In this document: positions 9,179 to 32,000 of the stretch, in pieces
Layout of the letters: every line of letters begins with the position of its first letter
Position numbering within the stretch: the stretch's first letter is position 1
Assembly: GCA_021740915.1 (NCBI GenBank)
Contig: JAIOYW010000012.1
Location: forward strand, 128,636-160,635
Source: Ignavibacteriales bacterium
GTDB taxonomy: Bacteria; Bacteroidota; Ignavibacteria; Ignavibacteriales; Melioribacteraceae
Direction of reading: 5' to 3'
DNA: 32,000 nucleotides
Made by a program: the position numbers and the translations under genes
The notes under the pieces: generated by a model
Seen by the model: the letters and a program-made list of their open reading frames with translations, nothing else
Databases searched by the model: none
What the model was told of the DNA's origin: nothing

Positions 9179-9431
9179 AATAAAAAAATCGTAAATTGAC
9201 AAAAAATAAAGATAGGAAAATCCCTGGATATGGTCTCAGTGAATGACAAAAGCTTATCAGGCAATCTATTACAAAATGGGGTTCCGCTTAACACTCTGGT
9301 CCATCGGTTGGATTAGCTTTTCATTGCGATCAGTTTCAAAAAAAACCACATAAAAGCAGGAGCAGGTAACAAAGCCCGGTACTAAAGTAAAAAATTAAAT
9401 GACAATACCTGCTGTTGGTAAAAATTGTTTT

Positions 9432-13640: not shown

Positions 13641-13674
13641 TGTTTAAAATAAACAAGGGGACCGAAGTCCCCTT
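13641..13674 (-). terminator. Strong GC hairpin with UUCG loop and U-rich tail (reads as an intrinsic terminator on the minus strand)
   Basis: Plus strand: aaggggac (13655-13662), cgaa, gtcccctt (13667-13674), a perfect 8-bp stem. On the minus strand the loop is UUCG and the hairpin is followed by GUUUAUUUUAAAC. No protein gene ends here, so it would terminate a small RNA or a leader transcript. Confidence 0.35.
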
Positions 13675-13858
13675 GAAATAGCCTTTCCATCTGTGGGCGG
13701 AATGGTTAATAAGGAATTGTGCAATTTACTTGTCCAGTTTAGACAGAACTCGAGCTGATTACTGATGGCAGCAGCCGGATGCAAAAAAACCTTAATTTCA
13801 AGATCAACGGCTTCGTGTGTTTGAAAAGTTTATTTTTCGATTTGTTAATTCCTCAAAG

Positions 13859-13878
13859 TGGGAAAACTTGGGAAAACT
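13859..13878. repeat. Perfect tandem duplication gggaaaactt x2, 30 nt upstream of the first gene of the large cluster
   Basis: Read directly: gtg GGGAAAACTT GGGAAAACTT cttcatg, then the ATG of the first permease at 13909. Function unknown; a possible operator or promoter element. Confidence 0.5.
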
Positions 13879-13908
13879 TCTTCATGTCGAATTTTGAAAC
13901 ATAAATAA

Positions 13909-17144: not shown

Positions 17145-17145
17145 A

Positions 17146-18273: not shown

Positions 18274-18274
18274 T

Positions 18275-19279: not shown

Positions 19280-19289
19280 AAAAGGTGCC

Positions 19290-22200
19290 ATGGAAAATAT
19301 TTACCGGTTTTATGAAGACATCCTTTCGAAATTAAAACTTTCTATAATCGGTTATGAACATATTTTAAAGGAGGTTAATGATTTTTTTTATTTGCTCACC
19401 TCTTACGCGGATTTTAAAGATAATAAAAACATTAGATTCATTTCATATTCGCTCGCGAAATTAAAGAATGCCAGCAATTGGGAAACCGAGTTATTGTCAA
19501 GTGACTTTTTCTTTCATGCTTTTCAAGAAGACCAATGTCTATATGAGTTAAGTTTTTATAATTACCTAAAATCTCAAAAAGGCATAAAATTTAGCACTAT
19601 AACTTCACTGAGTAATTTATTAGCGACAGACTTAAGTTTTCGAGTTGGTTGCATTGATAGCAATAATAAGAAATTTGAGTATGACGCACAGAATAAATTA
19701 TTATCCTTTTATATACCAAAGTCGGCAGTCTTTCTCGATGTTTTCTCCGATTCTCATGAAAATTATAAAAAAAATATAGATTCGAAGTCCGTTACAGAAT
19801 TTTTTGTTGAACAGGATAAAAGTATTTTTAAAAGAAAAAGTCCAAAGAGTGATTCTGAAATAGAGAAGCTAAGTAAAAAATTATATAAAGAAGGATTCAA
19901 TTTAGTTGGAATTGACTCGCTGGAAGTTTGTCTGATAAACTATTTAACGAATTTCATCGAGGAAAACCCAGAACTTTTTGTCCATTTTGATGATGCTGAA
20001 GAAAAGGAAAAACATATCGTTTACTGGGTTTTTCAAATTGTTTCAATTGCTTTTATTGCAAATATTTACAATTGCTGGGTTGAATATTTGCCAGCTATCG
20101 TTGGTATTATTAACAGGGAATCTGGTGCCGAGAACGCAGGAACGGCACCAGAAAACGTTAAGACTGAATACAGAAATTTGGGCTCATTTATTGTTGGATA
20201 TTCAGTAGGTTATGAGTTAACTAAAGACGAAAGAACGATATCTAAGCTAATTTCTGAAAGAGTAAGTTATGCAATAGGAGGAGAGTATTTAAAGAAAATT
20301 TTAACAGAAATTGAAGATTTTTCCCTGAATGCGGCTATTTCACGTATTATTTTATCTAATACTGCTCACCACCTCATTAGTCACTGCGCTCCATATTGCA
20401 CAACCGATAAGGTTATAAAAAGATTAAATTTCACTTCACTTACGGCTGATCAACTTAACTCAGTAATTAAAATGGTTAATCTTTATACGCTTTATGAAAA
20501 TTCGCGCAACGAATTTGTCGCCGGATTAAATAATAATAATCAACCTGTCGCTTTGCGTTTCTATAAGGACATAATTCAACCACTTGCTGAAAATTGCCTT
20601 CTACTGGATACTATTGCGGCAAGCGAGCAAATAACCTGGGGAAAAAAGGAAAATGGGAAAAATATTAATGACATTCAAGGAATAAGTCGTTTAAGGTTTC
20701 GGATATTCTACCATTGCAATCTCTTCGGTGAGAATAAATGGGAAAAAGGAAATGCCTGCTCAAAGAGAATTGAAAACAATTCAGTTGAGATATGCACTAA
20801 AAATTGTGAAATCAATAATTCAGGTAATGAGATTTATGAAGAAACCTATTTAGAAGCACCTGGTGATTACAGAGAAATGGTTGCTTATTACAAATACTTC
20901 AATGAATATAATAGCTCAAATATCCCAAGTAGTATATATTGTATTCATAGTTTACCTTATTTCAGATACTATAATCAGGATTCATTTCATAATGGGAATG
21001 TGGAATATACGTGTGAAAATGACATTGAAATTTTGGTTCGTGGTACACAGGGTATGCAATCGATTTATTCAATTCTTGAAAATTTTATTCGTAATACAGC
21101 AAAACATGCAAGTAAAAGTGTATTAGAAGACATTTTCCATTTGGATATAATAATAAAACTAAAAAAGGGGGAAACTTCTGATAATATTAATATGGAGCTT
21201 ATATCCAATATCCCAACGTTTAATAATGTGTGCACAGAGAGTGAATTAAGCGCGAATGAAAATAAAAACACCCCGTATGCAAAAATTTTGTTAGAGTCAA
21301 CTAAAGGTATTTACCCAACCACAATCCAGCGCGGAATAGCTGACATGAAAATTAACGGTGTGTTTCTTAAAATGCAGGAGATCACACAAAGAAATCTGGA
21401 AAAGGCGATAAAAGTGGGATATTACCCTAATAAACAGAATAACAAATACTCCATTGCCTACAGTTTTGTTCTTAAGAGACCACAAAAAATCGCATTTGTC
21501 GGCGATTTTAATAAACCCAACAATTACACCACTGATTTCGAAACATTCGGGATAAGAATATTTACTGATTTAAATGATGAACTGTATAGTTTTAAATTTG
21601 TTGTTTTCACAAGCGAATTTTTTAAAATAAGGAAGGATACTATTCTTGCTTCCGGAGACGGTGTAATGAATGAATGGTTATACCGCCTGCCCAGAAGAGT
21701 AATAATATTTGGCGATGATGTAAGTGTGGTTGAAAATATAATAAATAATTTCAACATTAGCTCTAAACGATTTATTATCACGAATGAAAATCCTCTACGA
21801 GGATCAAATTTTGAAACCCTAAAAACCTGCTGGCAAATATGGCTGAAAAGATGGTTGGGAGCTAAAGAAAGGATTTTTCTTAAGGTTGTTCCGGATGAAA
21901 AAACGTCCACAAACATTTTTGATAATCTTACTGATAAAAATATTTTTTCACAAGATTCGAAAATTAAATTAAGGAATATTTCGTTTTTGCGGCACGAAAA
22001 TACGATCGCAGACGATAAAGAAAAAAAAGCAAATTGGTTAAATGAGGATTGGTTTCTTGAAAATATTGAAAAAAACAATAAAGACTTTAATGTTATTTGG
22101 GGAAATAGAGATACTGTCAAATCTGAAAATTCCGATTTTCATTATGATTTATCCGAGACGGGTCTCTTAAAAATACTCATATTTGAGGAAAGATTAATTG

Positions 22201-22715
22201 AGTCATTGGGAAATAAGCAATTTACATACCCCAGTAAGAGCGATTTCCCTTTCCCTGGTGCTGGTTCTTCAAAACAGGTAGAACGAATTAAATTATACCA
22301 ACGCGATTATTTAGATGTGTCCATCGCAGCCAATTTGTATATAGTAACTCATTTTAATGATTTACAAATAAAATCAGTAAAGACAAATAGAAATTGTAAA
22401 TTTTATTCTAAAAATAATGAAATAGAGATCATGTCAGAGGATATGAACAATAAAAAAGTTGCAATTAAAGATTTTGATGTTTTAATAATTCACAGAACTC
22501 AACTTAATAATTTGTTTGAAAAAGATAATAAGAACGATATTTTTAATATTTTAAAGAAAAATTTCCCGATGATATATATTTCAACCGGAGGCGGCAGCAT
22601 TACCGATATTGAAGATAAGACTAAATTTAAGTTTGGTTTAATATCTTTAAATCAACTTCTAAACCATTTAACTCAAAGTGTAATGAAACATTCATTCAAA
22701 ACATATATTACTTAA
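19290..22715 (+). CDS. Large (about 1140-1152 aa) histidine-kinase-like ATPase protein with Cys/His-rich insert and C-terminal pseudo-receiver domain; otherwise uncharacterised
   Basis: The track start is ATG 19257, overlapping the upstream gene by 23 nt. The alternative ATG 19290 is preceded by AAGGTG. A NarX/DesK-style N-box YSILENFIRNTAKHASK lies at nt 21071-21118, followed by HLDIIIKL...MELISNIP...RGIADMKINGVFLK. A His-rich candidate phospho-site region ISRIILSNTAHHLISH lies near nt 20349-20387. HC-x12-C-x10-C-x3-C lies at nt 20711-20806. The C-terminal receiver-like fold has acidic residues replaced: LKILIFEERLIE ... FDVLIIHRTQL ... PMIYISTGGGS. Confidence 0.55.
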   Translation: MENIYRFYEDILSKLKLSIIGYEHILKEVNDFFYLLTSYADFKDNKNIRFISYSLAKLKNASNWETELLSSDFFFHAFQEDQCLYELSFYNYLKSQKGIKFSTITSLSNLLATDLSFRVGCIDSNNKKFEYDAQNKLLSFYIPKSAVFLDVFSDSHENYKKNIDSKSVTEFFVEQDKSIFKRKSPKSDSEIEKLSKKLYKEGFNLVGIDSLEVCLINYLTNFIEENPELFVHFDDAEEKEKHIVYWVFQIVSIAFIANIYNCWVEYLPAIVGIINRESGAENAGTAPENVKTEYRNLGSFIVGYSVGYELTKDERTISKLISERVSYAIGGEYLKKILTEIEDFSLNAAISRIILSNTAHHLISHCAPYCTTDKVIKRLNFTSLTADQLNSVIKMVNLYTLYENSRNEFVAGLNNNNQPVALRFYKDIIQPLAENCLLLDTIAASEQITWGKKENGKNINDIQGISRLRFRIFYHCNLFGENKWEKGNACSKRIENNSVEICTKNCEINNSGNEIYEETYLEAPGDYREMVAYYKYFNEYNSSNIPSSIYCIHSLPYFRYYNQDSFHNGNVEYTCENDIEILVRGTQGMQSIYSILENFIRNTAKHASKSVLEDIFHLDIIIKLKKGETSDNINMELISNIPTFNNVCTESELSANENKNTPYAKILLESTKGIYPTTIQRGIADMKINGVFLKMQEITQRNLEKAIKVGYYPNKQNNKYSIAYSFVLKRPQKIAFVGDFNKPNNYTTDFETFGIRIFTDLNDELYSFKFVVFTSEFFKIRKDTILASGDGVMNEWLYRLPRRVIIFGDDVSVVENIINNFNISSKRFIITNENPLRGSNFETLKTCWQIWLKRWLGAKERIFLKVVPDEKTSTNIFDNLTDKNIFSQDSKIKLRNISFLRHENTIADDKEKKANWLNEDWFLENIEKNNKDFNVIWGNRDTVKSENSDFHYDLSETGLLKILIFEERLIESLGNKQFTYPSKSDFPFPGAGSSKQVERIKLYQRDYLDVSIAANLYIVTHFNDLQIKSVKTNRNCKFYSKNNEIEIMSEDMNNKKVAIKDFDVLIIHRTQLNNLFEKDNKNDIFNILKKNFPMIYISTGGGSITDIEDKTKFKFGLISLNQLLNHLTQSVMKHSFKTYIT

Positions 22716-22720
22716 ATAAT

Positions 22721-23428
22721 ATGAAAACAATAATTATTTTTACAAGAGGTACTGACGACAGTGAATTTAATCATTGGTATGTTCAAGGAAAAACAAAAAT
22801 AGTTGAGATTGCAACAGATACCTGTGAAAAACCAAACGTTTATATTGCAAAATATAACCAGAGTCAGTTTGATCCTCAATCACCCGGTAATAATATTATT
22901 AGACAATTAATAATTGCAAGGGCTTACAATGATTTTCATGATGATGTGAAAAAGTACTTTAAGGACAAGGAGTTTGAGAATGCCCTGATTCTTTACCATA
23001 ATCAGAGTGAAGGTTTCTTGCAATACATTAAAAGCCTAAAGGCTTTAAAATATCAAAAATATAGCAGTACTGAGAACATAAATATTCCGCCGAAAAAAAT
23101 TAATACTTCTTCATACCCCCTTGACAAACTTTTGAATTCTATTCAGATGGAATCAGTATGTGATTTTACTGTTGAATTTGATGAGGTTTGGAATTCTTTT
23201 ATGGGAACCTTGAAATTAAGTGCCACCCTAGAATTTTTACACAAGTGTTTAGGGAAAGAAATTGATAGATTAGTCCTTACAGGGGCTGGTATTAATTTAG
23301 ATTATGAGGTAAATGAAAATAGATCCATCGTTCTTTTAATATCTGAGTTTCAAAAAGGATTTGACATTTCAGCATTAAAAGAATTGCGGGATGCCTTGCT
23401 GGAGATTGCAATAAGGATAAATAAGTGA
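22721..23428 (+). CDS. Hypothetical protein, 235 aa, no recognisable motif
   Basis: Intact ORF 5 nt after the preceding stop, same strand, with N/K/I-rich composition like its neighbours. The N-terminus MKTIIIFTRGTDDSEF suggests a beta-strand-first alpha/beta fold, but I cannot assign a family. Confidence 0.55.
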   Translation: MKTIIIFTRGTDDSEFNHWYVQGKTKIVEIATDTCEKPNVYIAKYNQSQFDPQSPGNNIIRQLIIARAYNDFHDDVKKYFKDKEFENALILYHNQSEGFLQYIKSLKALKYQKYSSTENINIPPKKINTSSYPLDKLLNSIQMESVCDFTVEFDEVWNSFMGTLKLSATLEFLHKCLGKEIDRLVLTGAGINLDYEVNENRSIVLLISEFQKGFDISALKELRDALLEIAIRINK

Positions 23429-23467: not shown

Positions 23468-25777
23468 ATGGTTTATTATTTTATATCAGATAATGAGCAG
23501 CATATAGGCGAGATTGTTTCTAAATTAGATTTTGTAAATAAAAAGAATGGAAAAGAATATTTAACTTTCAATACATCGAAATATTGCTATGGTTTTATTC
23601 AGCTTATTTCGGAAATATGGAAACAATACATTGAGAACCCCGATGCTGTTTTTATTATAAATACCGAATTGAAATTCACTGAAAGCGATGAAAGAGCAAA
23701 ATATATTGGTGTGGAATGTGCCATGGCTCTGCGGTTGATGAATAAGTTCCGTTACGAGAAAGAGATTTTCCTTTTCGGCTATTCGCCTCAGTCTTTCATT
23801 GAAAAGACTACTGAACGATGTTTTGAAACTTTTGGGTTTGTATATCAACAATTGCCATTTGAAGATGAAATATTGTCATGTTCAATAAAAACAATCTCCA
23901 ATAGTAAAAATATCAACTATAGTGAATTACCTGAGTATCATTTAATCGGCCTGCTGGATGACCACTTTGATCATTTTGACCGAAAAATAGAAGCTACTTT
24001 GAATTATTATTCATCGGATATTTGCAATATTATATCATACCCTTATTCATTGAATAAATCGCTCAATGAAAATTTTCCCGATATAAAAAAATGGCTTGCC
24101 TGCCATGATATATTGGATTTGTTCCTTCTGGATTTGAATTATGAAAAAATTGGTAATCATTCATCTACTAGCACACAAGATACTGACAAACAAGGATTAA
24201 ATGTACTGCATTATATTGATTCAATAGGTTATCAAACACCAGTCGCAATTTTATCAGTGTCTAAGGATGTTGAAGTAATAAAAAATATCACATTGGGATA
24301 TCATCAACTAATAAACGATTTTATTCCAACCGAATCAATCACGAACAGCCATTCTAAAATAGATATCAAAAATATTGATAATGTTGTAAAAGCAATCATT
24401 AAGTGTTTAAAAGATGCTGGTGCTAAAAGAAATAAACTGGGAATATTATTTACACATGGTACCGACACAATGGCCTGGACTTTAAGTTTACTGCACTACA
24501 GTCTCAAATTGCCAAAATGTAATATAGTTTTAACAGGTTCACAAATTCCACTAAAAGCCGAATTTTCACCCTCTGATGCTCCGGCTAATATCATAGCAGC
24601 TTTGTATTATCTTAATCAATTTGTACCCCCGCAAATAGGTGTTTCATTCGATATGGGGAAAAAATTTTTTAATAATAATCTTAAAAAAGTGCGGATTTGG
24701 AATGAAAATGCCTTTGATGGGCAGGTTAATGCCCAGTTCAATTGGCAGGATATAGAAACTAATCATAAAACTTTATTATTTAACAATTGTCTTGATAAGC
24801 TACTATTACTGACAACCGGAGGAACAATTGCCATGAGATCCGGACCTTGTTCAACAGGTCGGCCTGATGCAAGTGCAATGGAAAAGTTCTTTGACTCATA
24901 TGAGGCGAAATACAGAGTCCCGGAATCTGCCAAATTCCCTTTTTACAAGGATTTTGAACCATTATCAATTGTAAATATTGATTCTTCAGAGATGAATCCT
25001 GATGTTTATATTAAAATACTTAAAACTTTAATTGATCTCAATAATAAATTTGATTTTGCTGAGAAAGTAGAATCCGATTTCCGCTGGGATGTTTACCCAA
25101 TTCAATGTTCTCCTTTTATGAGGGAGGAGGATTATTATATTTACACCAAACATTATAAAACGGTAGACGATAAAGGGAATGTCGCCATTACTAAAAGCAA
25201 TCCAATTGTTTATGTTCTTCTAGGCTATGGCGCAGGTAATCTGCCATTTAAGAGCAATGAAGACAAAAACCAGGACGGCACAAAAAAATTTGATAAAGAA
25301 AATTATAGCCCTATGAACTTTGTTCGCGAAGTTATTCAAGATGGCAATATTGTAATACTTACTTCGCATGTACAACAAGAAACGCCTGATCTGGACTATG
25401 ATGTGTCAGTTAAATATATTGAGGAAGGAGTTCTTTTTGGTGGCAATATGACCCTCGCGGAAATAATGATAAAATGTGCTTATTTGTTAGGGAAAGTAAA
25501 TAATAAGGGATTGAAAAATCTTCAATTCCTAAAGACTTCGATCATGGCCGGAGTTGGTTTCAGGGGTAAATCTTCACGTATTAAATATATTAATCTTTTG
25601 CGTAGATTATTGAATGATAAAAAAAGGATCGAGATGAAGAAACATTACAACTATATTTTGCCGGACACCAATTATTTTAAGGAGTTACCTTTTGAGGACT
25701 ATAGTATTGAAAATGAGGTTAAGAAAGGTTCAAAATCTATCATTTATGATTTAATTAATTCGGTTTCCTATGAGTAA
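23468..25777 (+). CDS. Multi-domain protein: N-terminal receiver-like domain, near-canonical receiver (REC) domain, and asparaginase/GatD-like module with permuted motif order
   Basis: GAGGAG lies 8 nt upstream of the ATG. REC-like core at nt ~23930-24340: YHLIGLLDDHFD, DLFLLDLNYEK, GLNVLHYIDSIGYQTPVAILSVSKD. Asparaginase motifs: ILFTHGTDTMAWT...CNIVLTGSQIPL (HGTDTM = nt 24455-24472), then LLLLTTGGTIAMRSG (nt 24812-24835) ...NIDSSEMNPD. The C-domain follows: VYVLLGYGAGNLP...GNIVILTSHVQQ...GVLFGGNMTLAEIMIKCAYLLG. Confidence 0.7.
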   Translation: MVYYFISDNEQHIGEIVSKLDFVNKKNGKEYLTFNTSKYCYGFIQLISEIWKQYIENPDAVFIINTELKFTESDERAKYIGVECAMALRLMNKFRYEKEIFLFGYSPQSFIEKTTERCFETFGFVYQQLPFEDEILSCSIKTISNSKNINYSELPEYHLIGLLDDHFDHFDRKIEATLNYYSSDICNIISYPYSLNKSLNENFPDIKKWLACHDILDLFLLDLNYEKIGNHSSTSTQDTDKQGLNVLHYIDSIGYQTPVAILSVSKDVEVIKNITLGYHQLINDFIPTESITNSHSKIDIKNIDNVVKAIIKCLKDAGAKRNKLGILFTHGTDTMAWTLSLLHYSLKLPKCNIVLTGSQIPLKAEFSPSDAPANIIAALYYLNQFVPPQIGVSFDMGKKFFNNNLKKVRIWNENAFDGQVNAQFNWQDIETNHKTLLFNNCLDKLLLLTTGGTIAMRSGPCSTGRPDASAMEKFFDSYEAKYRVPESAKFPFYKDFEPLSIVNIDSSEMNPDVYIKILKTLIDLNNKFDFAEKVESDFRWDVYPIQCSPFMREEDYYIYTKHYKTVDDKGNVAITKSNPIVYVLLGYGAGNLPFKSNEDKNQDGTKKFDKENYSPMNFVREVIQDGNIVILTSHVQQETPDLDYDVSVKYIEEGVLFGGNMTLAEIMIKCAYLLGKVNNKGLKNLQFLKTSIMAGVGFRGKSSRIKYINLLRRLLNDKKRIEMKKHYNYILPDTNYFKELPFEDYSIENEVKKGSKSIIYDLINSVSYE

Positions 25778-26042
25778 GATAATGCCATTGGATGTTCTGT
25801 CTTCAATTAAAGGGGCAAATCCTTCAAAAGCTGTTGAAGAGCTTTTTATTAATGTAAAAAATGCAGTGAGTGAAATTGAAGAAAAGTCTGAATTTGAAAC
25901 TCATGATCAAATAATGACTGTTGAAGTCTTACGGGAGGACAAGGTTAATAAGTCTCCGGAGGATGAGATTGAAATTATTAAACGGAATTTTCCTTTACAA
26001 AAGGATAGTTATTTGGTAGTCCCGAGAGTAATTGAAGAATAG
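25770..26042 (+). CDS. gatC: Asp/Glu-tRNA amidotransferase subunit C (GatC)
   Basis: 90 aa, the right size for GatC. C-terminal GatC pattern VEVLREDKVNKSPEDEIEIIKRNFPLQKDSYLVVPRVIEE (LRED...VPxVI). The ATG overlaps the upstream stop by 8 nt, and the gene sits directly upstream of gatA. Confidence 0.7.
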   Translation: MSKIMPLDVLSSIKGANPSKAVEELFINVKNAVSEIEEKSEFETHDQIMTVEVLREDKVNKSPEDEIEIIKRNFPLQKDSYLVVPRVIEE

Positions 26043-26046: not shown

Positions 26047-27456
26047 ATGGAATCAGAAATAAAGAGAATACATAATCTTCTTTCGAGCGGAGAAATATCC
26101 TGTAAAGACTTGATAGGAGAAAAACTTTTATTGCTCGAAAGAAATGAGTACAATACTGCTAACCTTATATTAAAAGAATATGCCACTCAATTAGCAGAAA
26201 AGGTGGACAAAAGAATACAAGCCGGCAAAAAAATTGGCTTGCTTGAGGGAATTCCCTTTGGAATAAAGGACGTTATTTTATTAAAGGGACATAAAGCTAC
26301 TGCAAGTTCAGATATGTTGAAAGAATATATTGCACCTTATTCGGCAACAGTAGTGCAAAAACTACTGGATGTCGGTGCAATACCTATAGTTAAAGAAAAC
26401 TGCGATAGCTTTGGACATGGAAGCACCAATGAAAACACGATTTTTGGGTCTGTGAAAAATGCTTTGGATTTACGAAAAGTTGCCGGTGGTTCAAGTGGTG
26501 GCAGTGCAGTCAATGTTGCAAAAGGCATTACTGTTTTTAGTATAGGTGGCGATACCGGCGGCTCCATCAGACAACCATCGGGATATAATAAAGTTTACGG
26601 GCTAAAACCTACTTACGGCAAAGTTTCTCGTTATGGTATGATGGCTTACGCCTCATCTTTAGATACTATTGGTCCTATTGCAAACTCGATTGAGGATATA
26701 AGAATATTGCTGGACATTATCTCCGGTGAAGATATTCATGATATGAATACATATGCGGGCACAGTACTTCCTAAGAAAAAATTCGAATCCGAATCAGATC
26801 CTAAAAATTTTACGGTTGGTTACTATGTGGATTTCGTAAAAAGTAATTTTCTACATCCGAAATTAAAAACTGAATTTAATGATTTGATAGAAAAACTAAA
26901 ATTCGAGGGTGTCGAAATTGTTGAGTTAAATTTATTAAATACGGACCTTTTAGTTTCGATCTATTATGTTTTAGCAATGGCTGAAACCGCTTCAAATTTG
27001 GCGCGTCTTGACGGAATAAATTATGGAAAGCGAAGTGATTCCAGAAATTTAAAGGAGTCATACTCTGAAACGCGCTCTGAAAACCTTTCAGAAGAAACAA
27101 AAAGGAGAATAATCGGAGGTAATCAGGTCCTTTCCCATGGTCATTCTGAGGATATTTATATTAAAGCGATTCATTTACGAAATAATTTAAAAAAAGCTTT
27201 CTTTAATGACCTGCAAACGGTGGACATAATTCTCTCCCCAGTTTCAACAGTTCTCCCTCCGAATATCGGGGAAAGTTTACATGATCCTTACGCGATGTAC
27301 CTGTCAGATATTTATACGGTCGGTTTTAGTCTTAGTGAATTGCCTGTCCTAAACGTACCTTTATTCCTGGAGACCGGATTGCAGATTGCCTCAAATAAAA
27401 ATCAGGAAGCAATGATTTTTAAATTTGCTAATTATCTTAAACAAATAAGCTTATGA
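26047..27456 (+). CDS. gatA: Asp/Glu-tRNA amidotransferase subunit A (GatA, amidase-signature glutaminase)
   Basis: The track start is TTG 26032. The ATG at 26047 gives MESEIKRIHNLL. Amidase signature with a complete Ser-cisSer-Lys triad context: GIPFGIKDV, GGSSGGSAVNVAKG, GGDTGGSIRQPSGYNKVYGLKPTYGKVSRYGMMAYASSLDTIGP. Confidence 0.9.
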   Translation: MESEIKRIHNLLSSGEISCKDLIGEKLLLLERNEYNTANLILKEYATQLAEKVDKRIQAGKKIGLLEGIPFGIKDVILLKGHKATASSDMLKEYIAPYSATVVQKLLDVGAIPIVKENCDSFGHGSTNENTIFGSVKNALDLRKVAGGSSGGSAVNVAKGITVFSIGGDTGGSIRQPSGYNKVYGLKPTYGKVSRYGMMAYASSLDTIGPIANSIEDIRILLDIISGEDIHDMNTYAGTVLPKKKFESESDPKNFTVGYYVDFVKSNFLHPKLKTEFNDLIEKLKFEGVEIVELNLLNTDLLVSIYYVLAMAETASNLARLDGINYGKRSDSRNLKESYSETRSENLSEETKRRIIGGNQVLSHGHSEDIYIKAIHLRNNLKKAFFNDLQTVDIILSPVSTVLPPNIGESLHDPYAMYLSDIYTVGFSLSELPVLNVPLFLETGLQIASNKNQEAMIFKFANYLKQISL

Positions 27457-28880
27457 AAGCAGAAAAACTTAATGAACTCCTTGAACAACATGACTTAGAG
27501 ATAGTGATTGGATTGGAGACTCACATACGTTTAAATACCAATTCAAAATTATTTTGTTCCTGTGAGAATAAAGAAGCAGAAGTTCCAAATTCTAACATTT
27601 GTCCGATTTGCACCGGGCAAATGGGAGCATTGCCATCTCTCAATAAAGAAGCTGTAAGTAAAGCCATTATTTTCGGAAAAGTTATTGGGTCATCTTTCGT
27701 CAATAAATTAATTCACTGGGATAGAAAACATTATGAGTATCCTGATTTACCTAAAAACTATCAGTTAACTCAACACAAAAAACCAATTATTTCAGACGGA
27801 TTGATTAAATGTTATAGAAATGATGGTACCATTTTTACGGTTAATATTGAACAAGTTCATATTGAAGAAGATGCCGCAAAATTAATTCATGACGGAGAAA
27901 TCACATTAGTCGATTTTAATAAATCTGGTGTGCCTTTAATTGAAGTTGTTACCCAGCCGTGTATTCATAATATTACCGATATTCCATATTATGCTCAGAC
28001 ACTTCAACGTATAGTCCAGATTTATAATATTTCTGCTGCAAATCTTGAAAAGGGTGAATATAAATCGGATGTCAGTGTTTCACTGCGTAAAAGAGGGGCA
28101 AACGAATTAAATCCACGTGTGGAAATAAAAAATCTGAATTCATTCAGGTTCATGACCGACGCTGTACATACTGAAGTTGTAAAACAAATTGACTTCTTCA
28201 TTAAGAACAATTCTTTCAATGGGGAGATGACTACTGTATTGTTTGAGCCAACATCAAAGAATACAAAAACCATGCGCAAAAAGGAATTTGCCGCCGATTA
28301 CCGTTTTGCAAAAGAGCCGGATATTCCATCAATTGATATTTCAGATGCTATATTAGAGATTGATATAGACTATGAGGTTTTTCCATTTAATATCGAAACC
28401 GTATTAATTGACCAAGGAATCCGTCCTCAGGACGCAAAATATTTCACTTCAGATATAAAAAGGGCGATTGTCTTTACCGAGATAAACAGACGATTAAACA
28501 ACCCCAAGCTTGTTGCTAAAAATCTCTTTAACCTCATCAAGTCTGAGGATTACGAAAAAATAATTAATATTATTCCTTTTTCTGTTGTGCTCGATTTATT
28601 TTTTAAAGATAAGATTTCCCATAATAAATTAAAACAGATCATTGAAAACCTGCTTAAAAACAATGATTTTGACTTCCAGACTTTTTTAGATACCAATCAA
28701 GTAGATTTTTCGAAAGTTGACCAGATTATTAATAAAATTCTTTTTGACTATAATGAAATCGTTACTCAGATTAATTCGGGTGAATTAAATAAAATCAGTT
28801 TCTTAGTAAGTGCAGTACTTAAAATAACGGGGAAAGAAATTTCCGGTAAATATATAAAAAATAAAATTCAGGAATTGATA
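27453..28880 (+). other. gatB: GatB module of the fusion ORF (cradle domain, helical domain, YqeY-like tail)
   Basis: Motifs listed for the parent ORF. The module ends at ...KNKIQELI, just before the linker ISGEAPLHNSEKHHKSSNLAAFDNKRTLSFEENIIVKE (nt ~28881-28995). Confidence 0.85.
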
Positions 28881-30734
28881 ATTTCCGGGGAAGCGCCTCT
28901 TCACAATTCAGAAAAACACCACAAATCAAGCAATTTAGCAGCTTTTGATAATAAGAGGACGCTTAGTTTTGAAGAAAACATTATTGTGAAAGAAAAGTAT
29001 CGGACACATCTCGTCACCGATATTTCTTTATTAAATATAGGTGATACGGTAACTTTAGCAGGGTGGATTTCTAGCATAAGAGATCACGGGGAGATAGTCT
29101 TTGTTGATTTGCGTGATTCAAGTTTTGAAATCTTCCAAATCAGGTTGACTAAAAGTAATATTGTAAATATTGATTACTATTCTAAAATTCCTGTGGAGTC
29201 AGTTGTTTCAGTTCATGGCAAAGTGATTAAGCGCAAATCTGATGATGTCAACTCCAAAATAAGATCAGGTGAATTAGAATTAGATGCCACTGCCTTCGAA
29301 ATACTTAACTTATCAAAACAAATTCCATTTGAAATCAGAAGATCAACCAAAATCAAAGAGGATTCGAGATTAATCTATAAATTTTTAGACCACAGAAACT
29401 CGGAAATTAGACATATTATTATTAATCGTCATCTTGTGATTCAATTTATAAGAAATTATTTAAGTAAACTTGGGTTTATTGAAATTGAAACGCCAATTCT
29501 ATCAGCTGGCACAGAAGAAGGAGCCAAAGAATTTATTGTACCTGCCCGGAAGTTTGTCGGAGCTTATTATGCACTCCCCCAATCACCACAGCAATATAAA
29601 CAGATGCTGATATGTAGTGGATATGATAAATATTTCCAAATAGCACGTTGCTTCCGAGACGAGGATTCCAGAGGGGACCGGCAGCCTGAGTTCACGCAAT
29701 TTGATTTGGAAATGGCATTTGCCAGCATGCAGGATATTATTAGTTTGAACACGACCTTGTTTAATGATTTGGTGTCTTCGGTATATGGGACCAAGTGGAA
29801 GCTTTTTCCTTTTAAGGTAATTACTTATGAAGAAGCTATTCTGAAATATGGCACCGATAGACCGGATTTAAGATATGGTCTTGAAATGGATGACATTACT
29901 GAGATTGTAATGAAAACAAATTTCAAGGTTTTTACAGATTCCATCAGACTTGGAGGAATAGTAAAATGTTTAAAGATTGATAAAGGCAGTAAAAAAAATG
30001 ACTTGACCCGTACACAAATTGAAAACCTGACTGAAATTGCCAAACAAAATGGTCTTGGCGGATTGGCTTATATAATTTTAAACAATGGAGAATTACAATC
30101 ACCCATAAAAAAATATTTGGGAGAAAGAGCATGTGATGAGATCATCAATAAGATGAAAGCTGTTGATGGTGATATATTATTTTTCTCTGCGGCAATGCCG
30201 AAGATCGCAAATAAAGCTTTGGATGCAGTCAGACAGGAATTGGGAAAAATTCTCGGTCTGGTAAAGCATAAGGAATTACACCCAGCTTGGATCGTTGATT
30301 TTCCTCAATTTGAGAAAACAGATGAAGGAAAATGGACTTTTTCGCATAATCCCTTCTCTATGCCAAGAATTGAGTACCTGAATGACCATTTGAATGCAAC
30401 AAATATAGAGAATATTATCGCCCAACAATATGACTTAGTCGTTAATGGTCATGAGATTGGCGGCGGTTCCGTAAGATCTCATAAAAGAGAAATTTTGGAA
30501 GCGACCTACAAAATTATGGGATATGATTCGTTGAAGATACAAAAAAGCATTGGTCACATGCTAAACGCATTTCAATATGGAACTCCTCCACATGGGGGTA
30601 TCGCCTGGGGAATTGATCGTTTAATGATGGTACTTGAGTCCAAATCTTCTATTCGTGAAGTCATTGCATTCCCCAAAACCGGCTCAGGTGAAGATTTGCT
30701 ATTTGGAAGTCCAAGCAAAAAGAATCAAAAATGA
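27453..30734 (+). CDS. gatB/aspS: Single ORF fusing full-length GatB (amidotransferase subunit B with YqeY-like tail) to full-length bacterial-type aspartyl-tRNA synthetase
   Basis: ATGA overlap with the gatA stop. GatB half: IGLETHIRLNTNSKLFCSC, CPICTGQMGALPSLNKEAV, HIEEDAAKLIH, GVPLIEVVTQP, PRVEIKNLNSFRFMTDAVHTEVVKQ, tail ISFLVSAVLKITGKEISGKYIKNKIQELI. AspRS half: RTHLVTD...GDTVTLAGWISSIRDHGEIVFVDLRD (OB fold), FIEIETPIL (motif 1), LPQSPQQYKQML, CFRDEDSRGDRQPEFTQFDLEMAF (motif 2), GTDRPDLRYGLE plus a GAD-type insertion, HNPFSMP, GGGSVRSH, GTPPHGGIAWGIDRLMMVL (motif 3). Confidence 0.9.
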   Translation: MKAEKLNELLEQHDLEIVIGLETHIRLNTNSKLFCSCENKEAEVPNSNICPICTGQMGALPSLNKEAVSKAIIFGKVIGSSFVNKLIHWDRKHYEYPDLPKNYQLTQHKKPIISDGLIKCYRNDGTIFTVNIEQVHIEEDAAKLIHDGEITLVDFNKSGVPLIEVVTQPCIHNITDIPYYAQTLQRIVQIYNISAANLEKGEYKSDVSVSLRKRGANELNPRVEIKNLNSFRFMTDAVHTEVVKQIDFFIKNNSFNGEMTTVLFEPTSKNTKTMRKKEFAADYRFAKEPDIPSIDISDAILEIDIDYEVFPFNIETVLIDQGIRPQDAKYFTSDIKRAIVFTEINRRLNNPKLVAKNLFNLIKSEDYEKIINIIPFSVVLDLFFKDKISHNKLKQIIENLLKNNDFDFQTFLDTNQVDFSKVDQIINKILFDYNEIVTQINSGELNKISFLVSAVLKITGKEISGKYIKNKIQELIISGEAPLHNSEKHHKSSNLAAFDNKRTLSFEENIIVKEKYRTHLVTDISLLNIGDTVTLAGWISSIRDHGEIVFVDLRDSSFEIFQIRLTKSNIVNIDYYSKIPVESVVSVHGKVIKRKSDDVNSKIRSGELELDATAFEILNLSKQIPFEIRRSTKIKEDSRLIYKFLDHRNSEIRHIIINRHLVIQFIRNYLSKLGFIEIETPILSAGTEEGAKEFIVPARKFVGAYYALPQSPQQYKQMLICSGYDKYFQIARCFRDEDSRGDRQPEFTQFDLEMAFASMQDIISLNTTLFNDLVSSVYGTKWKLFPFKVITYEEAILKYGTDRPDLRYGLEMDDITEIVMKTNFKVFTDSIRLGGIVKCLKIDKGSKKNDLTRTQIENLTEIAKQNGLGGLAYIILNNGELQSPIKKYLGERACDEIINKMKAVDGDILFFSAAMPKIANKALDAVRQELGKILGLVKHKELHPAWIVDFPQFEKTDEGKWTFSHNPFSMPRIEYLNDHLNATNIENIIAQQYDLVVNGHEIGGGSVRSHKREILEATYKIMGYDSLKIQKSIGHMLNAFQYGTPPHGGIAWGIDRLMMVLESKSSIREVIAFPKTGSGEDLLFGSPSKKNQK
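28996..30734 (+). other. aspS: AspRS module of the fusion ORF (OB-fold anticodon-binding domain, class II core, bacterial GAD insertion)
   Basis: Begins at KYRTHLVTD, equivalent to the natural N-terminus of bacterial AspRS. All three class II motifs and the QSPQ and GGGS(V/I)R(S/I)H signatures are present. Confidence 0.85.
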
Positions 30735-32000
30735 ATCCCTTTCACATATCCGATTCAAGTTTAGGTTTATCATTTCCGATTTTGATTGATACTCCTGAAA
30801 CCCTAATTGAAAAAGTAAGAGAGAAACATGCCAATTCAATATTATTTCTAATTAATATCAACTACCAAACAGATAACATTTCCCGTGCTGACAATGCCGG
30901 TATTCAATTCCTTAAATATTTACGATTAAATCATTTCAATCAACATTGTGTACTATATTCCTTTCTGAGCCGTGAACAGTTGATGATTCAAAATCCGCAC
31001 AATTCGATTATCTTCTCAGAAGGTGTTACATTCATCAGGATGCCAGCGGATTTAAAAAAGGTCGATTTTGAATCACTGGCAATAAAGCAAGCCCCCGATA
31101 ATCTCGGTGATTTTTTCAAGGCTGAATTTCGTTTACCGGATGATCGCCATTTCTTTGCGAACTGGTGGGGAGTTCTACAGCTATGGAAAGTGCAAAAAGC
31201 GGTTGAGGGAATCGCGGGGAGTACTACCCTTGCTGAAATTGAAATGGATTTAATGGGGTCAATTACAGAGATGTATTCTTACCCCGGGTTGGTTGCAAAA
31301 TATATAAAATGTGTGCCTGATGAAGATGTCGCAAATAAACTCAAATTACTCTTGAGTAAAAAAAACGAGGTTTATCAAACTGATATCAGGCATAGCTCGG
31401 AAATTGAACGTGAAAACAAAAAATTGCACAGCGAACTTAACAAGATTGATATTCAGTTGAATGTTCTGAATGAAACCCTTTCAGAAAAGCAGAGTGGTGT
31501 TTTCAGCAAACTCCTTTCAAATTTAACTGTTTTACCTTTAACAATTAAGAAGAAGATTGAATCCCTTGAGAAACAAAAGTATGATATCAAATCAAATATC
31601 ATTCAAAATCAAGAATACGTGGAATTGGTTAATCTGATAAAAAAAGAAAAAAACACTGTTTACGATGCACGCAGAAAACTGAACAGAAAGATACTAACTA
31701 ATTTAGATGAAATAACGGCAAAAAAAAGTTTTTCTACACGTAATTTCTCGATTGATAATACCCAAAAGACATTGGCGGATAAAAAACCATCTATCGTTTT
31801 TGTGGATGATCAGGCAAATGATGGTTGGGCTGCAATTTTCCAAAGAATAATCTATGGGAAAACCAACGATAAATTTTCGGTAATACAGCCGGGTAAAAAT
31901 GATTCTGTAAATGAAATTTCAAAGTTGATAGCTAATAGGATAGTTGAGAAAAAAGCTGATTTATTGGTACTCGATCTTCGGCTAAAAGGCGAAAGAGGAA
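30731..32000 (+). CDS. Receiver-domain protein (N-terminal receiver-like domain, coiled coil, canonical REC), truncated by the right edge
   Basis: Not in the ORF track because it has no stop in the window. ATGA overlap with the GatB-AspRS stop. My translation is open for 423 codons: MNPFHISDSSLGLSFPILIDTPETLIEKVREKHANSILFLININYQ...; coiled-coil segment SEIERENKKLHSELNKIDIQLNVLNETLSEKQ...; then REC: KPSIVFVDDQANDGWAAIFQRIIYG...KKADLLVLDLRLKGERG (acidic pair and phospho-acceptor Asp in place). Confidence 0.75.
   Translation, partial: MNPFHISDSSLGLSFPILIDTPETLIEKVREKHANSILFLININYQTDNISRADNAGIQFLKYLRLNHFNQHCVLYSFLSREQLMIQNPHNSIIFSEGVTFIRMPADLKKVDFESLAIKQAPDNLGDFFKAEFRLPDDRHFFANWWGVLQLWKVQKAVEGIAGSTTLAEIEMDLMGSITEMYSYPGLVAKYIKCVPDEDVANKLKLLLSKKNEVYQTDIRHSSEIERENKKLHSELNKIDIQLNVLNETLSEKQSGVFSKLLSNLTVLPLTIKKKIESLEKQKYDIKSNIIQNQEYVELVNLIKKEKNTVYDARRKLNRKILTNLDEITAKKSFSTRNFSIDNTQKTLADKKPSIVFVDDQANDGWAAIFQRIIYGKTNDKFSVIQPGKNDSVNEISKLIANRIVEKKADLLVLDLRLKGERG

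What the first reader, a model, noticed from the sequence alone, without database searches (positions are those of the whole stretch)
27453..30734. Covalent GatB-AspRS fusion: a hard-wired transamidosome in one 1093-aa polypeptide
The ORF is continuous. A complete GatB (catalytic cradle motifs, KNLNSF segment, YqeY-like tRNA-binding tail) is followed by a ~38-aa polar linker (ISGEAPLHNSEKHHKSSNLAAFDNKRTLSFEENIIVKE). A complete bacterial AspRS follows, with OB fold, motifs 1-3 and the GAD insertion. Established knowledge: bacteria lacking AsnRS make Asn-tRNA(Asn) with a non-discriminating AspRS plus GatCAB. These assemble non-covalently with tRNA into the transamidosome described for Thermus thermophilus, which channels the mischarged Asp-tRNA(Asn). 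Fusing the two enzymes would make that channelling obligatory. I do not recall a characterised example of this architecture, but I cannot search databases here. Catalytic residues of both halves look intact.
Basis: partly seen in the sequence, partly recalled or inferred. Interest (0 to 1): 0.8.

Follow-up and report, generated by a model that had tools for sequence, protein, structure and literature searches.

The report
Fused GatB–AspRS asparagine-tRNA enzyme, already annotated
The gene really does encode two enzymes of the indirect asparaginyl-tRNA pathway joined in one chain, but this fusion is widespread, is already named in public annotation, and most likely belongs to a three-gene cassette that makes asparagine on its tRNA.

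Summary
Window 27453-30734 (+) is one uninterrupted 1093-aa ORF. It holds a complete GatB, a roughly 37-aa variable and disordered linker, and a complete bacterial-type AspRS with its GAD insertion. gatC and gatA lie immediately upstream.

It is not an artefact. Hundreds of full-length homologues exist, including in complete genomes.

It is not new as an architecture. A 100% identical protein is already in NCBI under the name 'bifunctional amidotransferase subunit GatB/aspartate--tRNA ligase AspS'. The same fusion occurs throughout the genus Polaribacter, in Algibacter and other Bacteroidota, in Ignavibacteriota, and in a candidate-division SR1 genome. I found no paper that characterises the fusion.

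The conserved unit is gatC-gatA-gatB::aspS. In 31 of 73 related loci, and in SR1, it is preceded by an asparagine-codon leader peptide plus a terminator, which is a trp-type attenuator. A published survey lists Polaribacter sp. MED152 with GatCAB and without AsnA/AsnB, while typical Flavobacteriaceae show the reverse. The best reading is therefore a self-contained tRNA-dependent asparagine and Asn-tRNA(Asn) synthesis cassette. Obligatory channelling remains unproven.

In this window the cassette has no leader. It sits inside a conserved, uncharacterised cluster next to a rare asparaginase-like protein.

The parts
25770..26042 (+). gatC-like small subunit (90 aa; the N-terminus MSKIM is conserved in relatives). 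It overlaps the end of the upstream gene by 8 nt.
   Evidence: Weak TIGR00135 gatC match (25.3 bits, below the cut-off). Homologous 86-91-aa ORFs sit at the same position before gatA in the fusion loci where that region is held; tblastn found them in 10 loci (42-56% identity; gene tables).
26047..27456 (+). gatA, the amidase/glutaminase subunit (469 aa from the ATG; the mechanical ORF starts at a TTG at 26032). Its stop overlaps the fusion's start codon (ATGA).
   Evidence: Pfam Amidase E 2.5e-111. TIGR00132 gatA scores 429.6 bits, below the cut-off of 481, so it is a divergent GatA. The KD, GGSSGGS and GGDTGGSIRQP signature motifs are visible in the translation. It is 51-75% identical to the gatA upstream of every other fusion.
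27453..30734 (+). gatB::aspS fusion ORF, 1093 aa (the reported finding).
27501..28355 (+). GatB catalytic cradle domain (residues 17-301).
   Evidence: Pfam GatB_N E 6.6e-91. Aligns with Aquifex GatB 3H0L_B at 257 bits, with the catalytic motifs conserved.
28473..28880 (+). GatB helical/YqeY-like tail domain (residues 341-476), divergent.
   Evidence: Pfam GatB_Yqey at only 28.6 bits. Helical with pLDDT 74-91 in the AF2 model. Column conservation is 0.53-0.70 among fusions.
28884..28994 (+). Inter-enzyme linker (residues 478-514). It is polar and variable in length and sequence, and is predicted to be disordered.
   Evidence: Lowest conservation and 36% gaps in the 120-sequence alignment. pLDDT 28-36.
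29049..29306 (+). AspRS N-terminal OB-fold anticodon-binding domain (residues 533-618). It contains the invariant RDHG motif (His545).
   Evidence: Pfam tRNA_anti-codon E 1.7e-13. His545 is invariant and aligns with His31 of the P. aeruginosa ND-AspRS in 4WJ3 and with Leu30 of E. coli AspRS.
29358..30680 (+). AspRS class II catalytic core (residues 636-1076) with motifs 1-3.
   Evidence: Pfam tRNA-synt_2 E 1.2e-101. Aligns end to end with 6WOM, 4WJ3, 1C0A and 4O2D.
29931..30221 (+). GAD insertion domain of bacterial-type AspRS (residues 827-923).
   Evidence: Pfam GAD E 4.1e-18.
23468..25777 (+). 769-aa asparaginase-like protein directly upstream of gatC. This is context, and its membership of the functional unit is uncertain.
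   Evidence: Pfam Asparaginase and Asparaginase_C. Weak GatD and type I asparaginase matches. The family is rare, with 17 hits. It lies immediately upstream of gatC-gatA-fusion in 4 loci and occurs without the cassette in 2 loci.
19257..23428 (+). Two co-directional genes of unknown function (1152 aa and 235 aa). They are syntenic with fast-evolving counterparts in related clusters (context).
   Evidence: No Pfam, NCBIfam or PADLOC hit. Identity is 28% and 44% to the counterparts in L004.
30731..32000 (+). Start of a 775-aa gene of unknown function whose start overlaps the fusion's stop by 4 nt. It runs off the window (context).
   Evidence: Gene table of L003. 48.5% identical to the 774-aa protein in L004. 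Only a weak receiver-domain match.

Best explanation
The ORF encodes a genuine bifunctional polypeptide. The GatB subunit of the tRNA-dependent amidotransferase is joined by a flexible linker of about 37 residues to a bacterial-type aspartyl-tRNA synthetase. Together with the co-transcribed GatC and GatA it forms a self-contained three-gene cassette, gatC-gatA-gatB::aspS.

Proposed mechanism (inferred from the known two-step pathway, not shown here). The AspRS half, as a dimer, attaches Asp to tRNA(Asn). GatA releases ammonia from Gln. The tethered GatB half phosphorylates and amidates the Asp-tRNA(Asn) to give Asn-tRNA(Asn). The tether keeps the two active sites at high local concentration, so the mischarged intermediate is less likely to escape.

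Physiological role. The cassette is a portable route to asparagine and Asn-tRNA(Asn) for bacteria that have AsnRS and GlnRS but no AsnA/AsnB. It carries its own tRNA(Asn)-accepting AspRS, so it does not depend on the host's own AspRS.

What is shown: the architecture, the operon, the distribution, and the Asn-responsive leader in relatives. What is inferred: tRNA(Asn) specificity, channelling, and that the window's organism uses the cassette in the same way.
For: (1) Both halves pass the curated equivalog cut-offs and keep their catalytic motifs.

(2) The order gatC-gatA-fusion, with the same spacing, is seen in every fusion locus where that upstream region is held. These come from Ignavibacteriota, Flavobacteriales, Cytophagales, Bacteroidales-like MAGs and SR1. 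The outer neighbours differ.

(3) 31 of 73 related loci with at least 200 nt upstream of gatC carry a 14-17-codon leader ORF with 5-8 Asn codons and no Asp codons (consensus M..NNNN(R/N)NFNNPN(F/L)). It is followed by a strong intrinsic terminator. An alternative antiterminator pairing is possible in 23 of 24 parsed sequences, and the Asn-codon run can pair with the following GUURUUGUU. The SR1 genome has the same layout. Expression is therefore tuned to Asn-tRNA(Asn) supply.

(4) The gene table of Alperstein et al. 2014 (PMC4206432, Table S1) lists typical Flavobacteriaceae and Bacteroides with asnB or asnA and no gatCAB. It lists Polaribacter sp. MED152 and Melioribacter roseus with neither asnA nor asnB, but with gatCAB, asnS and glnS. 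The fusion is found in more than 30 named Polaribacter species and strains and in a Melioribacteraceae MAG.

(5) A GlnRS gene lies 4-5 kb from the cassette in L006, so a Gln-tRNA role is not needed there.

(6) His545 is invariant. It occupies the position of His31 of the P. aeruginosa non-discriminating AspRS, where E. coli has Leu. That His31 favours tRNA(Asn) recognition is recalled from Bernard et al. 2006, not checked here.

(7) The fusion's AspRS half is only 37.6-43.5% identical to a Flavobacteriales housekeeping AspRS (6WOM). That enzyme is 64% identical to the representative of the AspRS cluster nearest to it (P0193, taxon unnamed). The cassette's AspRS is therefore a separate lineage.
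Against: No enzymology for any member was found in the searchable literature. tRNA(Asn) and its U1-A72 pair could not be examined for this organism. Whole genomes could not be read, so it is unknown whether the window's organism lacks asnA/asnB or keeps a separate aspS. The window itself has no Asn leader, because gatC directly follows another gene. The second residue reported to mark non-discriminating enzymes (Gly83 in P. aeruginosa) is Asp here, which matches neither type. AlphaFold2 gives no defined geometry between the halves, so channelling is neither supported nor refuted. The terminator shows only one compensatory pair and the antiterminator shows none, because the sequences are closely related.
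Confidence: 0.72

Rival explanations
1. The fusion is the cell's only AspRS and only GatB. [quoted passage not shown]
For: Table S1 of PMC4206432 lists aspS = 1 together with gatCAB = 1 for Polaribacter sp. MED152 and Melioribacter roseus. The 1.18-Mb SR1 genome carries the fusion and is unlikely to hold spare synthetases. No standalone aspS or gatB turned up in about 1 Mb of flanking DNA from fusion loci.
Against: The leader peptides sense Asn codons only and contain no Asp codons. That would be an odd control for the sole AspRS. The fusion's AspRS is about 40% identical to a Flavobacteriales housekeeping AspRS, so sole-copy status would require displacement of the native gene in each carrier lineage. 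How the survey counted a fused gene is unknown. The flanks searched are a tiny fraction of each genome.
Confidence: 0.3
2. In this window's lineage the cassette works for the surrounding conserved cluster rather than for ordinary translation. That cluster holds a Liv-type ABC importer, a variable small-molecule enzyme, large fast-evolving unknown proteins and an asparaginase-like protein. The cassette might supply aminoacyl-tRNA to an unknown transferase, or use the asparaginase-like protein as an extra ammonia donor in the way archaeal GatD serves GatE.
For: The genes are tightly coupled and co-directional from 13909 to beyond 32000. The asparaginase-like gene lies directly upstream of gatC in four loci whose fusions are only 60-73% identical, including a 'Tannerella sp.' MAG. 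The asparaginase-like family is rare and shows weak GatD similarity.
Against: Most cassettes stand alone as three genes in unrelated contexts. The asparaginase-like cluster also exists without the cassette. No partner protein has a recognisable aminoacyl-tRNA-using domain. The association could be simple co-regulation of nitrogen or amino-acid genes.
Confidence: 0.12
3. The long ORF is an assembly or sequencing artefact that merges two ordinary adjacent genes, gatB and aspS.
For: The source is a metagenome-assembled sequence, and the linker is poorly conserved.
Against: The same protein sequence is carried by two contigs in the collection. The top-120 lists of two searches are 240 listed proteins, each the representative of a 90%-identity cluster and all full-length fusions. 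Several of these proteins are recorded on megabase-scale contigs of cultured isolates. At least 572 relatives were found in metagenome contigs. The fusion is conserved at 48.7% identity in SR1.
Confidence: 0.01
4. The GatCAB part mainly serves Gln-tRNA(Gln) formation, and the AspRS fusion is incidental.
For: Bacterial GatCAB enzymes are generally dual-specific in vitro (established knowledge; review PMC2330236).
Against: glnS is listed as present in Polaribacter sp. MED152, Melioribacter and Ignavibacterium. A GlnRS gene lies beside the cassette in L006. The partner fused to GatB is AspRS, not GluRS. The regulatory leader is made of Asn codons, not Gln codons.
Confidence: 0.07

Closest known systems
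RefSeq/PGAP protein name 'bifunctional amidotransferase subunit GatB/aspartate--tRNA ligase AspS' (UniProt label 'Multifunctional fusion protein')
   Same: Identical architecture. The window's protein is 100% identical to a protein already carrying this name (P0001). It is 57-73% identical to many others in Polaribacter, Algibacter, Marinilongibacter, Jiulongibacter, Neotamlana, and Melioribacteraceae and Tannerella-like MAGs.
   Different: Nothing differs in architecture. The name is an annotation only. I found no paper describing activity, structure or regulation.
Non-covalent Asn-transamidosome (ND-AspRS + GatCAB + tRNA(Asn)) of Thermus thermophilus, Helicobacter pylori and Pseudomonas aeruginosa (PDB 3KFU, 4WJ3; PMC3367201)
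   Same: The same enzymes and the same presumed two-step chemistry. The AspRS half aligns end to end with the P. aeruginosa ND-AspRS of 4WJ3 (434 bits). The GatB half aligns with the GatB chains of 3KFU and 4WJ3.
   Different: Here GatB and AspRS are one polypeptide. The known complexes are held together by tRNA and protein contacts, and the bacterial-type complex of H. pylori is described as dynamic. The GatB tail domain of the fusion is much more divergent than usual (28.6 bits against 150 bits in a canonical one).
NCBIfam NF009460 / PRK12820: bifunctional aspartyl-tRNA synthetase / amidotransferase subunit GatC
   Same: It is another catalogued covalent fusion between AspRS and a GatCAB subunit. 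The window protein matches its AspRS part (444.8 bits).
   Different: The fused partner is GatC at the C-terminus of AspRS, not GatB at the N-terminus. The window protein is far below that model's cut-off of 1379, so it is not a member.
Clostridium acetobutylicum extra ND-AspRS/GatCAB genes for tRNA-dependent asparagine synthesis (cited in PMC4206432 as its reference 18)
   Same: An additional AspRS plus an additional GatCAB are dedicated to making Asn on tRNA in an organism that also has AsnRS. From memory, that operon is controlled by a T-box that senses tRNA(Asn) charging. That would be the same logic as the Asn leader found here.
   Different: The genes there are separate, not fused. No T-box or other Rfam family was found in the window or in six related loci. 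Regulation in relatives of the window's cassette is by a leader peptide plus terminator.
Classical leader-peptide transcription attenuators (trp, his, leu, thr, pheST)
   Same: In relatives of the window's cassette there is a short ORF with a run of the regulatory codon, followed by mutually exclusive antiterminator and terminator hairpins.
   Different: The regulatory codon is Asn, and the controlled genes are a synthetase-amidotransferase cassette. No Rfam family matched L015, which carries the leader. The element is absent from the window itself.
Deinococcus radiodurans GlnRS with a C-terminal YqeY/GatB-tail domain (PMC1865053)
   Same: A synthetase is covalently joined to GatB-derived sequence (abstract).
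   Different: Only the tRNA-binding tail is fused there, to a GlnRS, and no amidotransferase catalytic domain is present.

Membership tests
GatB, B subunit of Asp-tRNA(Asn)/Glu-tRNA(Gln) amidotransferase | GatB/GatE catalytic cradle domain with conserved catalytic motifs, scoring above the curated family cut-off | tested here: met
   GatB_N E 6.6e-91. TIGR00133 at 363.8 bits against a cut-off of 314.8, and NF004012 at 386 against 338. Motifs are conserved against 3H0L_B, 3AL0_B and 3KFU_F and invariant in 58 fusions.
GatB, B subunit of Asp-tRNA(Asn)/Glu-tRNA(Gln) amidotransferase | C-terminal helical plus YqeY-like tail domain that binds the tRNA D-loop | tested here: met
   GatB_Yqey at 28.6 bits against a cut-off of 27, so only barely met. 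It aligns to the end of Aquifex GatB, residues 311-475, and is confidently helical in AF2. tRNA binding itself was not tested.
GatB, B subunit of Asp-tRNA(Asn)/Glu-tRNA(Gln) amidotransferase | Partner subunits GatA and GatC are encoded | tested here: met
   gatC-like ORF at 25770-26042 and gatA at 26047-27456 lie directly upstream. This arrangement is conserved in the other fusion loci examined.
Bacterial-type aspartyl-tRNA synthetase (AspS) | N-terminal OB anticodon-binding domain, class II core with motifs 1-3, and the GAD insertion, scoring above the equivalog cut-offs | tested here: met
   TIGR00459 at 617 against 373.85, and PRK00476 at 673 against 443. Pfam domains. End-to-end alignments to 6WOM, 4WJ3, 1C0A and 4O2D.
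Non-discriminating AspRS (accepts tRNA(Asn)) | Anticodon-domain residues associated with tRNA(Asn) acceptance in bacterial-type enzymes (His31 and Gly83 of P. aeruginosa AspRS; recalled from Bernard et al. 2006) | tested here: inconclusive
   The His31 position is His545, invariant in the fusions. The Gly83 position is Asp597, which matches neither the Gly of the non-discriminating enzyme nor the Lys of E. coli. These residues are weak predictors.
Non-discriminating AspRS (accepts tRNA(Asn)) | Measured aspartylation of tRNA(Asn) | not testable with these tools
   An in vitro charging assay or the E. coli trpA34/JF448 complementation assays used in PMC4206432 would be needed.
Asn-transamidosome | Physical complex of AspRS, GatCAB and tRNA(Asn) that hands Asp-tRNA(Asn) from one active site to the other | not testable with these tools
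   The covalent link between AspRS and GatB is shown by the sequence. Complex geometry and hand-over are not shown: the AF2 pTM is 0.45 and the linker is disordered.
RefSeq 'bifunctional GatB/AspS' proteins | A single polypeptide with full-length GatB followed by full-length AspS, homologous over its whole length to proteins carrying that name | tested here: met
   100% identity to P0001, which carries that name, and 57-73% identity at 96-100% coverage to 119 further proteins, each the representative of a 90%-identity cluster.
AspRS-GatC bifunctional family (NF009460/PRK12820) | AspRS with a C-terminal GatC domain, scoring at or above 1379 bits | tested here: not met
   444.8 bits, matching model positions 13-607 only, with no GatC at the C-terminus.
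Leader-peptide transcription attenuator (regulating the cassette) | Short ORF rich in the regulatory codon, followed by alternative antiterminator and terminator hairpins upstream of the first gene | tested here: not met
   The feature is absent from the window. gatC overlaps the preceding gene, and no run of five or more AAY codons exists anywhere in the 32 kb. It is met in relatives: 31 of 73 loci and SR1.

The most novel reading that the evidence does not exclude
In this window's lineage the fused transamidosome cassette has been captured by a conserved but fast-evolving gene cluster. That cluster is built around a rare, tandem or permuted GatD-like asparaginase, a Liv-type ABC importer, a swappable small-molecule enzyme and several large proteins with no recognisable domains. 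The asparaginase-like protein might act as a new amide-donor or partner subunit for GatCAB-AspRS. Alternatively, the cassette might feed Asn-tRNA or Asp-tRNA into an undescribed pathway outside translation.
Probability: 0.12. Interest if true: 0.75.

Novelty: already known. Interest (0 to 1): 0.4.

Why it matters
As an architecture the fusion is not a discovery. It is named in RefSeq and is common in marine Flavobacteriaceae, other Bacteroidota, Ignavibacteriota and SR1.

It still matters in two ways. First, it appears to be experimentally untouched. It offers a natural test of whether tethering AspRS to GatB enforces substrate hand-over and protects the genetic code from Asp-for-Asn errors. 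Cultured carriers such as Polaribacter, Algibacter and Marinilongibacter make that test feasible. Second, the comparative work done here gives the cassette a concrete physiological meaning. It looks like a mobile, self-sufficient, tRNA-dependent asparagine biosynthesis module. In many relatives it is switched on by an asparagine-codon leader attenuator, which matched no Rfam family where tested. The same layout occurs in an SR1 (CPR) genome and in Flavobacteriaceae.

Tried and rejected
1. Artefact hypothesis. Rejected on the basis of two contigs carrying the same sequence and hundreds of full-length homologues.

2. T-box or another known riboswitch upstream of the cassette. Rfam at gathering thresholds found nothing relevant in the window or in six related loci.

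3. Defence-system reading of the surrounding cluster. There were no PADLOC hits, and NCBIfam and Pfam gave only weak hints (receiver-like, HD).

4. The H449N change (HHPF to HNPF) as a sign of lost or altered AspRS activity. Rejected because HNPF is shared by 36 of the 171 sequences checked, many of them standalone AspRSs.

5. AlphaFold2 to test transamidosome-like geometry. The result was uninformative: pTM 0.45, a disordered linker, and low confidence in the monomeric class II core. I therefore ran no fold search.

6. Sole versus extra AspRS. I could not read whole genomes. tblastn of all fetched flanks found no second aspS or gatB. The published table gives aspS = 1 but does not say how a fused gene was counted. 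This remains unresolved.

7. The structural papers on the T. thermophilus and P. aeruginosa transamidosomes (PMC2944067, PMC4299244) are not held. The distance between the GatB C-terminus and the AspRS N-terminus in 3KFU/4WJ3 could therefore not be taken from them.

8. A nearby tRNA(Asn) gene. None was found; only a tRNA-Gln in L006.

9. The apparent nearest 'standalone' relatives P0124 (AspRS) and P0207 (GatB) sit on 2-4-kb contigs and are closest to the SR1 fusion. They are probably fragments, or fusions split by in-frame UGA codons, rather than true unfused genes.

Full report
OBSERVATION

The window contains one uninterrupted ORF at 27453-30734 (+), 1093 aa. Pfam places GatB_N at residues 17-301, GatB_Yqey at 341-476, the OB anticodon-binding fold at 533-618, the class II core tRNA-synt_2 at 636-1076, and the GAD insertion at 827-923. 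NCBIfam scores both halves above the curated equivalog cut-offs: aspS_bact at 617 bits against 373.85, PRK00476 at 673 against 443, and gatB TIGR00133 at 363.8 against 314.8.

Alignment to solved structures shows a complete GatB. The best hit is Aquifex 3H0L_B at 257 bits, and the GatB chains of the transamidosome entries 3KFU and 4WJ3 also match. It also shows a complete bacterial AspRS. The best hits are Elizabethkingia 6WOM at 445 bits, the P. aeruginosa non-discriminating AspRS of 4WJ3 at 434 bits, and E. coli 1C0A at 420 bits. All catalytic motifs are kept.

Directly upstream lie a gatC-like ORF (25770-26042) and gatA (26047-27456). The gatA stop codon overlaps the fusion's start codon.

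NOT AN ARTEFACT, AND NOT NEW

A search of 5.8 billion proteins returned a 100% identical protein found on two contigs. NCBI names it 'MAG: bifunctional amidotransferase subunit GatB/aspartate--tRNA ligase AspS [Ignavibacteriales ...]'. It was followed by 119 further proteins, each the representative of a 90%-identity cluster. All are full-length fusions at 57-73% identity. They come from Tannerella-like, Dysgonamonadaceae, Marinilabiliaceae and Melioribacteraceae MAGs and from cultured Algibacter, Neotamlana, Marinilongibacter and Jiulongibacter.

A second search, started from a Polaribacter copy, again filled its top 120 with fusions. These included more than 30 named Polaribacter species and strains, almost all with the same RefSeq name. 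A metagenome scan found at least 572 further relatives.

A 120-sequence alignment is conserved along its whole length except for the linker, which varies in sequence and length. No paper using GatB-AspRS fusion terms was found. The fusion looks catalogued but uncharacterised.

THE CONSERVED UNIT

In every fusion locus where the upstream region is held, the order and spacing are the same: a gatC-like gene (86-91 aa), then gatA (465-470 aa), then the fusion. The outer neighbours are unrelated.

The complete 1.18-Mb genome of candidate division SR1 RAAC1_SR1_1 has the same three genes. Its fusion is 48.7% identical to the window's. It contains 17 in-frame UGA codons, which read through under genetic code 25.

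At the 50%-identity cluster level, a library-wide HMMER search shows the fusion family as a few clusters: P0121, P0122 and the SR1-like sequences. No genuinely standalone AspRS is closer than about 44% identity. The two apparent exceptions sit on 2-4-kb contigs and are probably fragments.

A Clostridia fusion (Aminipila, P0123) is an independent event. Its AspRS half is closest to standalone enzymes (52%), not to the main clade (39%), and its GatB tail is canonical.

The fusion's AspRS half is 37.6-43.5% identical to a Flavobacteriales housekeeping AspRS (6WOM). That enzyme is 64% identical to P0193, the representative of the AspRS cluster nearest to it. The cassette therefore carries a foreign AspRS lineage rather than a fused copy of the host gene.

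WHAT IT DOES

Three lines of evidence point to asparagine.

(i) Regulation. Upstream of gatC in Seonamhaeicola (L015) and Polaribacter (L010) there is a 15-codon ORF, MRNNNNNNNFNNPKF and MIINNNNRNFNTPNI respectively. It is followed by a strong intrinsic terminator. Across the fetched loci, 31 of 73 with enough upstream sequence carry this leader (5-8 Asn codons, no Asp codons) plus the terminator AAAGCCTTCC...GGAAGGCTTTTTTT.

The element has the layout of a trp-type attenuator. The Asn-codon run can pair with GUURUUGUU just after the stop codon (about -7 kcal/mol). The adjacent GGAAGGUU can pair with the 5' arm of the terminator (about -10.8 kcal/mol, in 23 of 24 parsed sequences). The terminator itself averages -15.9 kcal/mol. 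On the alignment, 96.5% of terminator cells and 94.7% of antiterminator cells can pair. There is one compensatory GC-to-AU pair in the terminator and no covariation in the antiterminator, so the support comes from conservation and thermodynamics, not from covariation.

SR1 has the same design: MKIVLTQVNNNNNNLPPRGFF followed by AAACCTTCCTAG...CTAGGGAGGTTTTTTT. No Rfam family matched L015, which carries the leader. Loci without a leader share a promoter-like motif instead.

(ii) Phyletic pattern. In the gene table of Alperstein et al. 2014 (PMC4206432, Table S1), Gramella, Zobellia, Cellulophaga, Flavobacterium and Bacteroides have asnB or asnA and no gatCAB. Polaribacter sp. MED152 and Melioribacter roseus have neither asnA nor asnB, but do have gatCAB, asnS and glnS. 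Because the fusion is found so widely in Polaribacter, that GatCAB is very probably this cassette. This last step is an inference.

(iii) Specificity hints. His545 is invariant and sits at the position of His31 of the P. aeruginosa non-discriminating enzyme, where E. coli has Leu. The second reported position is Asp, which fits neither type, so the residue test is inconclusive. GlnRS is present in carriers, which makes a Gln role unnecessary.

MECHANISM

The mechanism is inferred from the established two-step pathway (PMC2330236, PMC3367201). The AspRS half charges tRNA(Asp or Asn) with Asp. GatA supplies ammonia. The tethered GatB half amidates Asp-tRNA(Asn).

The H. pylori bacterial-type transamidosome is described as dynamic, possibly because of the GAD domain. 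A covalent tether would compensate for that. However, AlphaFold2 gives a disordered linker (pLDDT about 30) and no fixed arrangement (pTM 0.45). 'Hard-wired' channelling remains a hypothesis.

Whether carriers keep a separate housekeeping aspS could not be settled. The published table gives aspS = 1. The Asn-only leader and the foreign origin of the fused AspRS argue for an extra copy. I put the sole-copy alternative at about 0.3 for Bacteroidota, and consider it likely for SR1.

THIS WINDOW'S PECULIARITY

Here the cassette has no leader. gatC overlaps the end of a 769-aa asparaginase-like gene (23468-25777). The fusion's stop codon overlaps the start of a 775-aa gene of unknown function. Everything from 13909 onward is co-directional:

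- Liv-type ABC transporter
- PLP enzyme
- 1152-aa and 235-aa proteins of unknown function
- asparaginase-like protein
- the cassette
- further unknowns, followed by DA1-like, VWA, PP2C and kinase genes

The asparaginase-like family is rare, with 17 hits. It lies directly upstream of the cassette in four loci: the window, L004, L120 and a 'Tannerella sp.' MAG at 41% identity. It also occurs in the same kind of cluster without the cassette in two loci. Its neighbours evolve fast; for example, the 1152-aa and 1227-aa proteins are 28% identical while the fusions are 73% identical. They have no recognisable domains.

The asparaginase-like protein has HGTDT near residue 330 and TGGTIAM near residue 455. 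This is the reverse of the normal order, which suggests a tandem or permuted asparaginase. A functional link to the cassette is possible but unproven. This is the most novel reading left open.

VERDICT

The architecture is already known and annotated. Interest is moderate, because the family seems biochemically unstudied and because the Asn-leader attenuator and the link to absent asparagine synthetases give it a testable physiological role.

Noticed in passing
L015 8205-8309; L010 8160-8262; 29 further loci among L042-L119 (alignment A2); L011 8074-8197: An asparagine-codon leader peptide (consensus M..NNNN(R/N)NFNNPN(F/L), 5-8 Asn codons, no Asp) plus an intrinsic terminator with a competing antiterminator lies upstream of gatC in 31 of 73 related loci. 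The same layout occurs in the SR1 genome. No Rfam family matched where this was tested (L015). It is absent from the window.
   Followed up: yes
window 23468-25777: A 769-aa asparaginase-like protein from a rare family (17 database hits). It has HGTDT near residue 330 and TGGTIAM near residue 455, the reverse of the usual order, so it may be tandem or circularly permuted. It lies directly upstream of the cassette in 4 loci and occurs without the cassette in 2.
   Followed up: partly
window 13909-23428 and L003 13279-23282 (the window's downstream extension): A long co-directional, tightly packed gene string: a LivHMGF-type ABC transporter and binding protein, a PLP enzyme, and 1152-aa and 235-aa unknowns upstream; 775-aa, 709-aa, 243-aa and 306-aa unknowns, a DA1-like peptidase, VWA, PP2C, VWA and a Ser/Thr kinase downstream. 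In relatives the enzyme slot is swapped (adh_short, methyltransferase, radical SAM). No defence or family models match.
   Followed up: partly
L011 9959-13249 (CP006913.1, SR1 RAAC1_SR1_1): The SR1 copy of the fusion has 17 in-frame TGA codons and is intact only under genetic code 25. Short 'standalone' GatB and AspRS sequences closest to it in the protein libraries (P0207, P0124) are probably fragments or products of gene calls split at TGA.
   Followed up: partly
P0123, P0140, P0134, P0136: Other AspRS fusions turned up. There is an independent GatB-AspRS fusion in Aminipila (Clostridia), where other cluster members annotated by NCBI as AspRS are 584-639 aa. There are also HisRS-AspRS fusions in Bacillota and AspRS proteins with a C-terminal YbaK-like tRNA_edit domain.
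   Followed up: partly
P0001 vs P0292: Proteins 100% identical to those of this window are labelled Ignavibacteriales bacterium in one NCBI MAG and Candidatus Cloacimonetes bacterium in another. The taxonomic label of the source is therefore uncertain.
   Followed up: no
L061-L118, about 40-90 nt upstream of gatC: Loci without the Asn leader share a conserved motif, CTTTCGTAATTTTGC..CTTAAAAGTTTGA. It resembles the Bacteroidota TAnnTTTG promoter element and suggests two alternative control regions for the same cassette.
   Followed up: no
window 4015-5796 (+) and 7385-9202 (-): Two proteins carry Por_Secre_tail (type IX secretion) sorting domains. This is consistent with an origin in the Bacteroidota/Ignavibacteriota group.
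   Followed up: no
window 13225-13908: An unusually long 685-nt intergenic region lies ahead of the ABC-transporter gene string. It contains a GC-rich hairpin (GGGGACCGAAGTCCCC). No Rfam match and no Asn-codon run were found.
   Followed up: no
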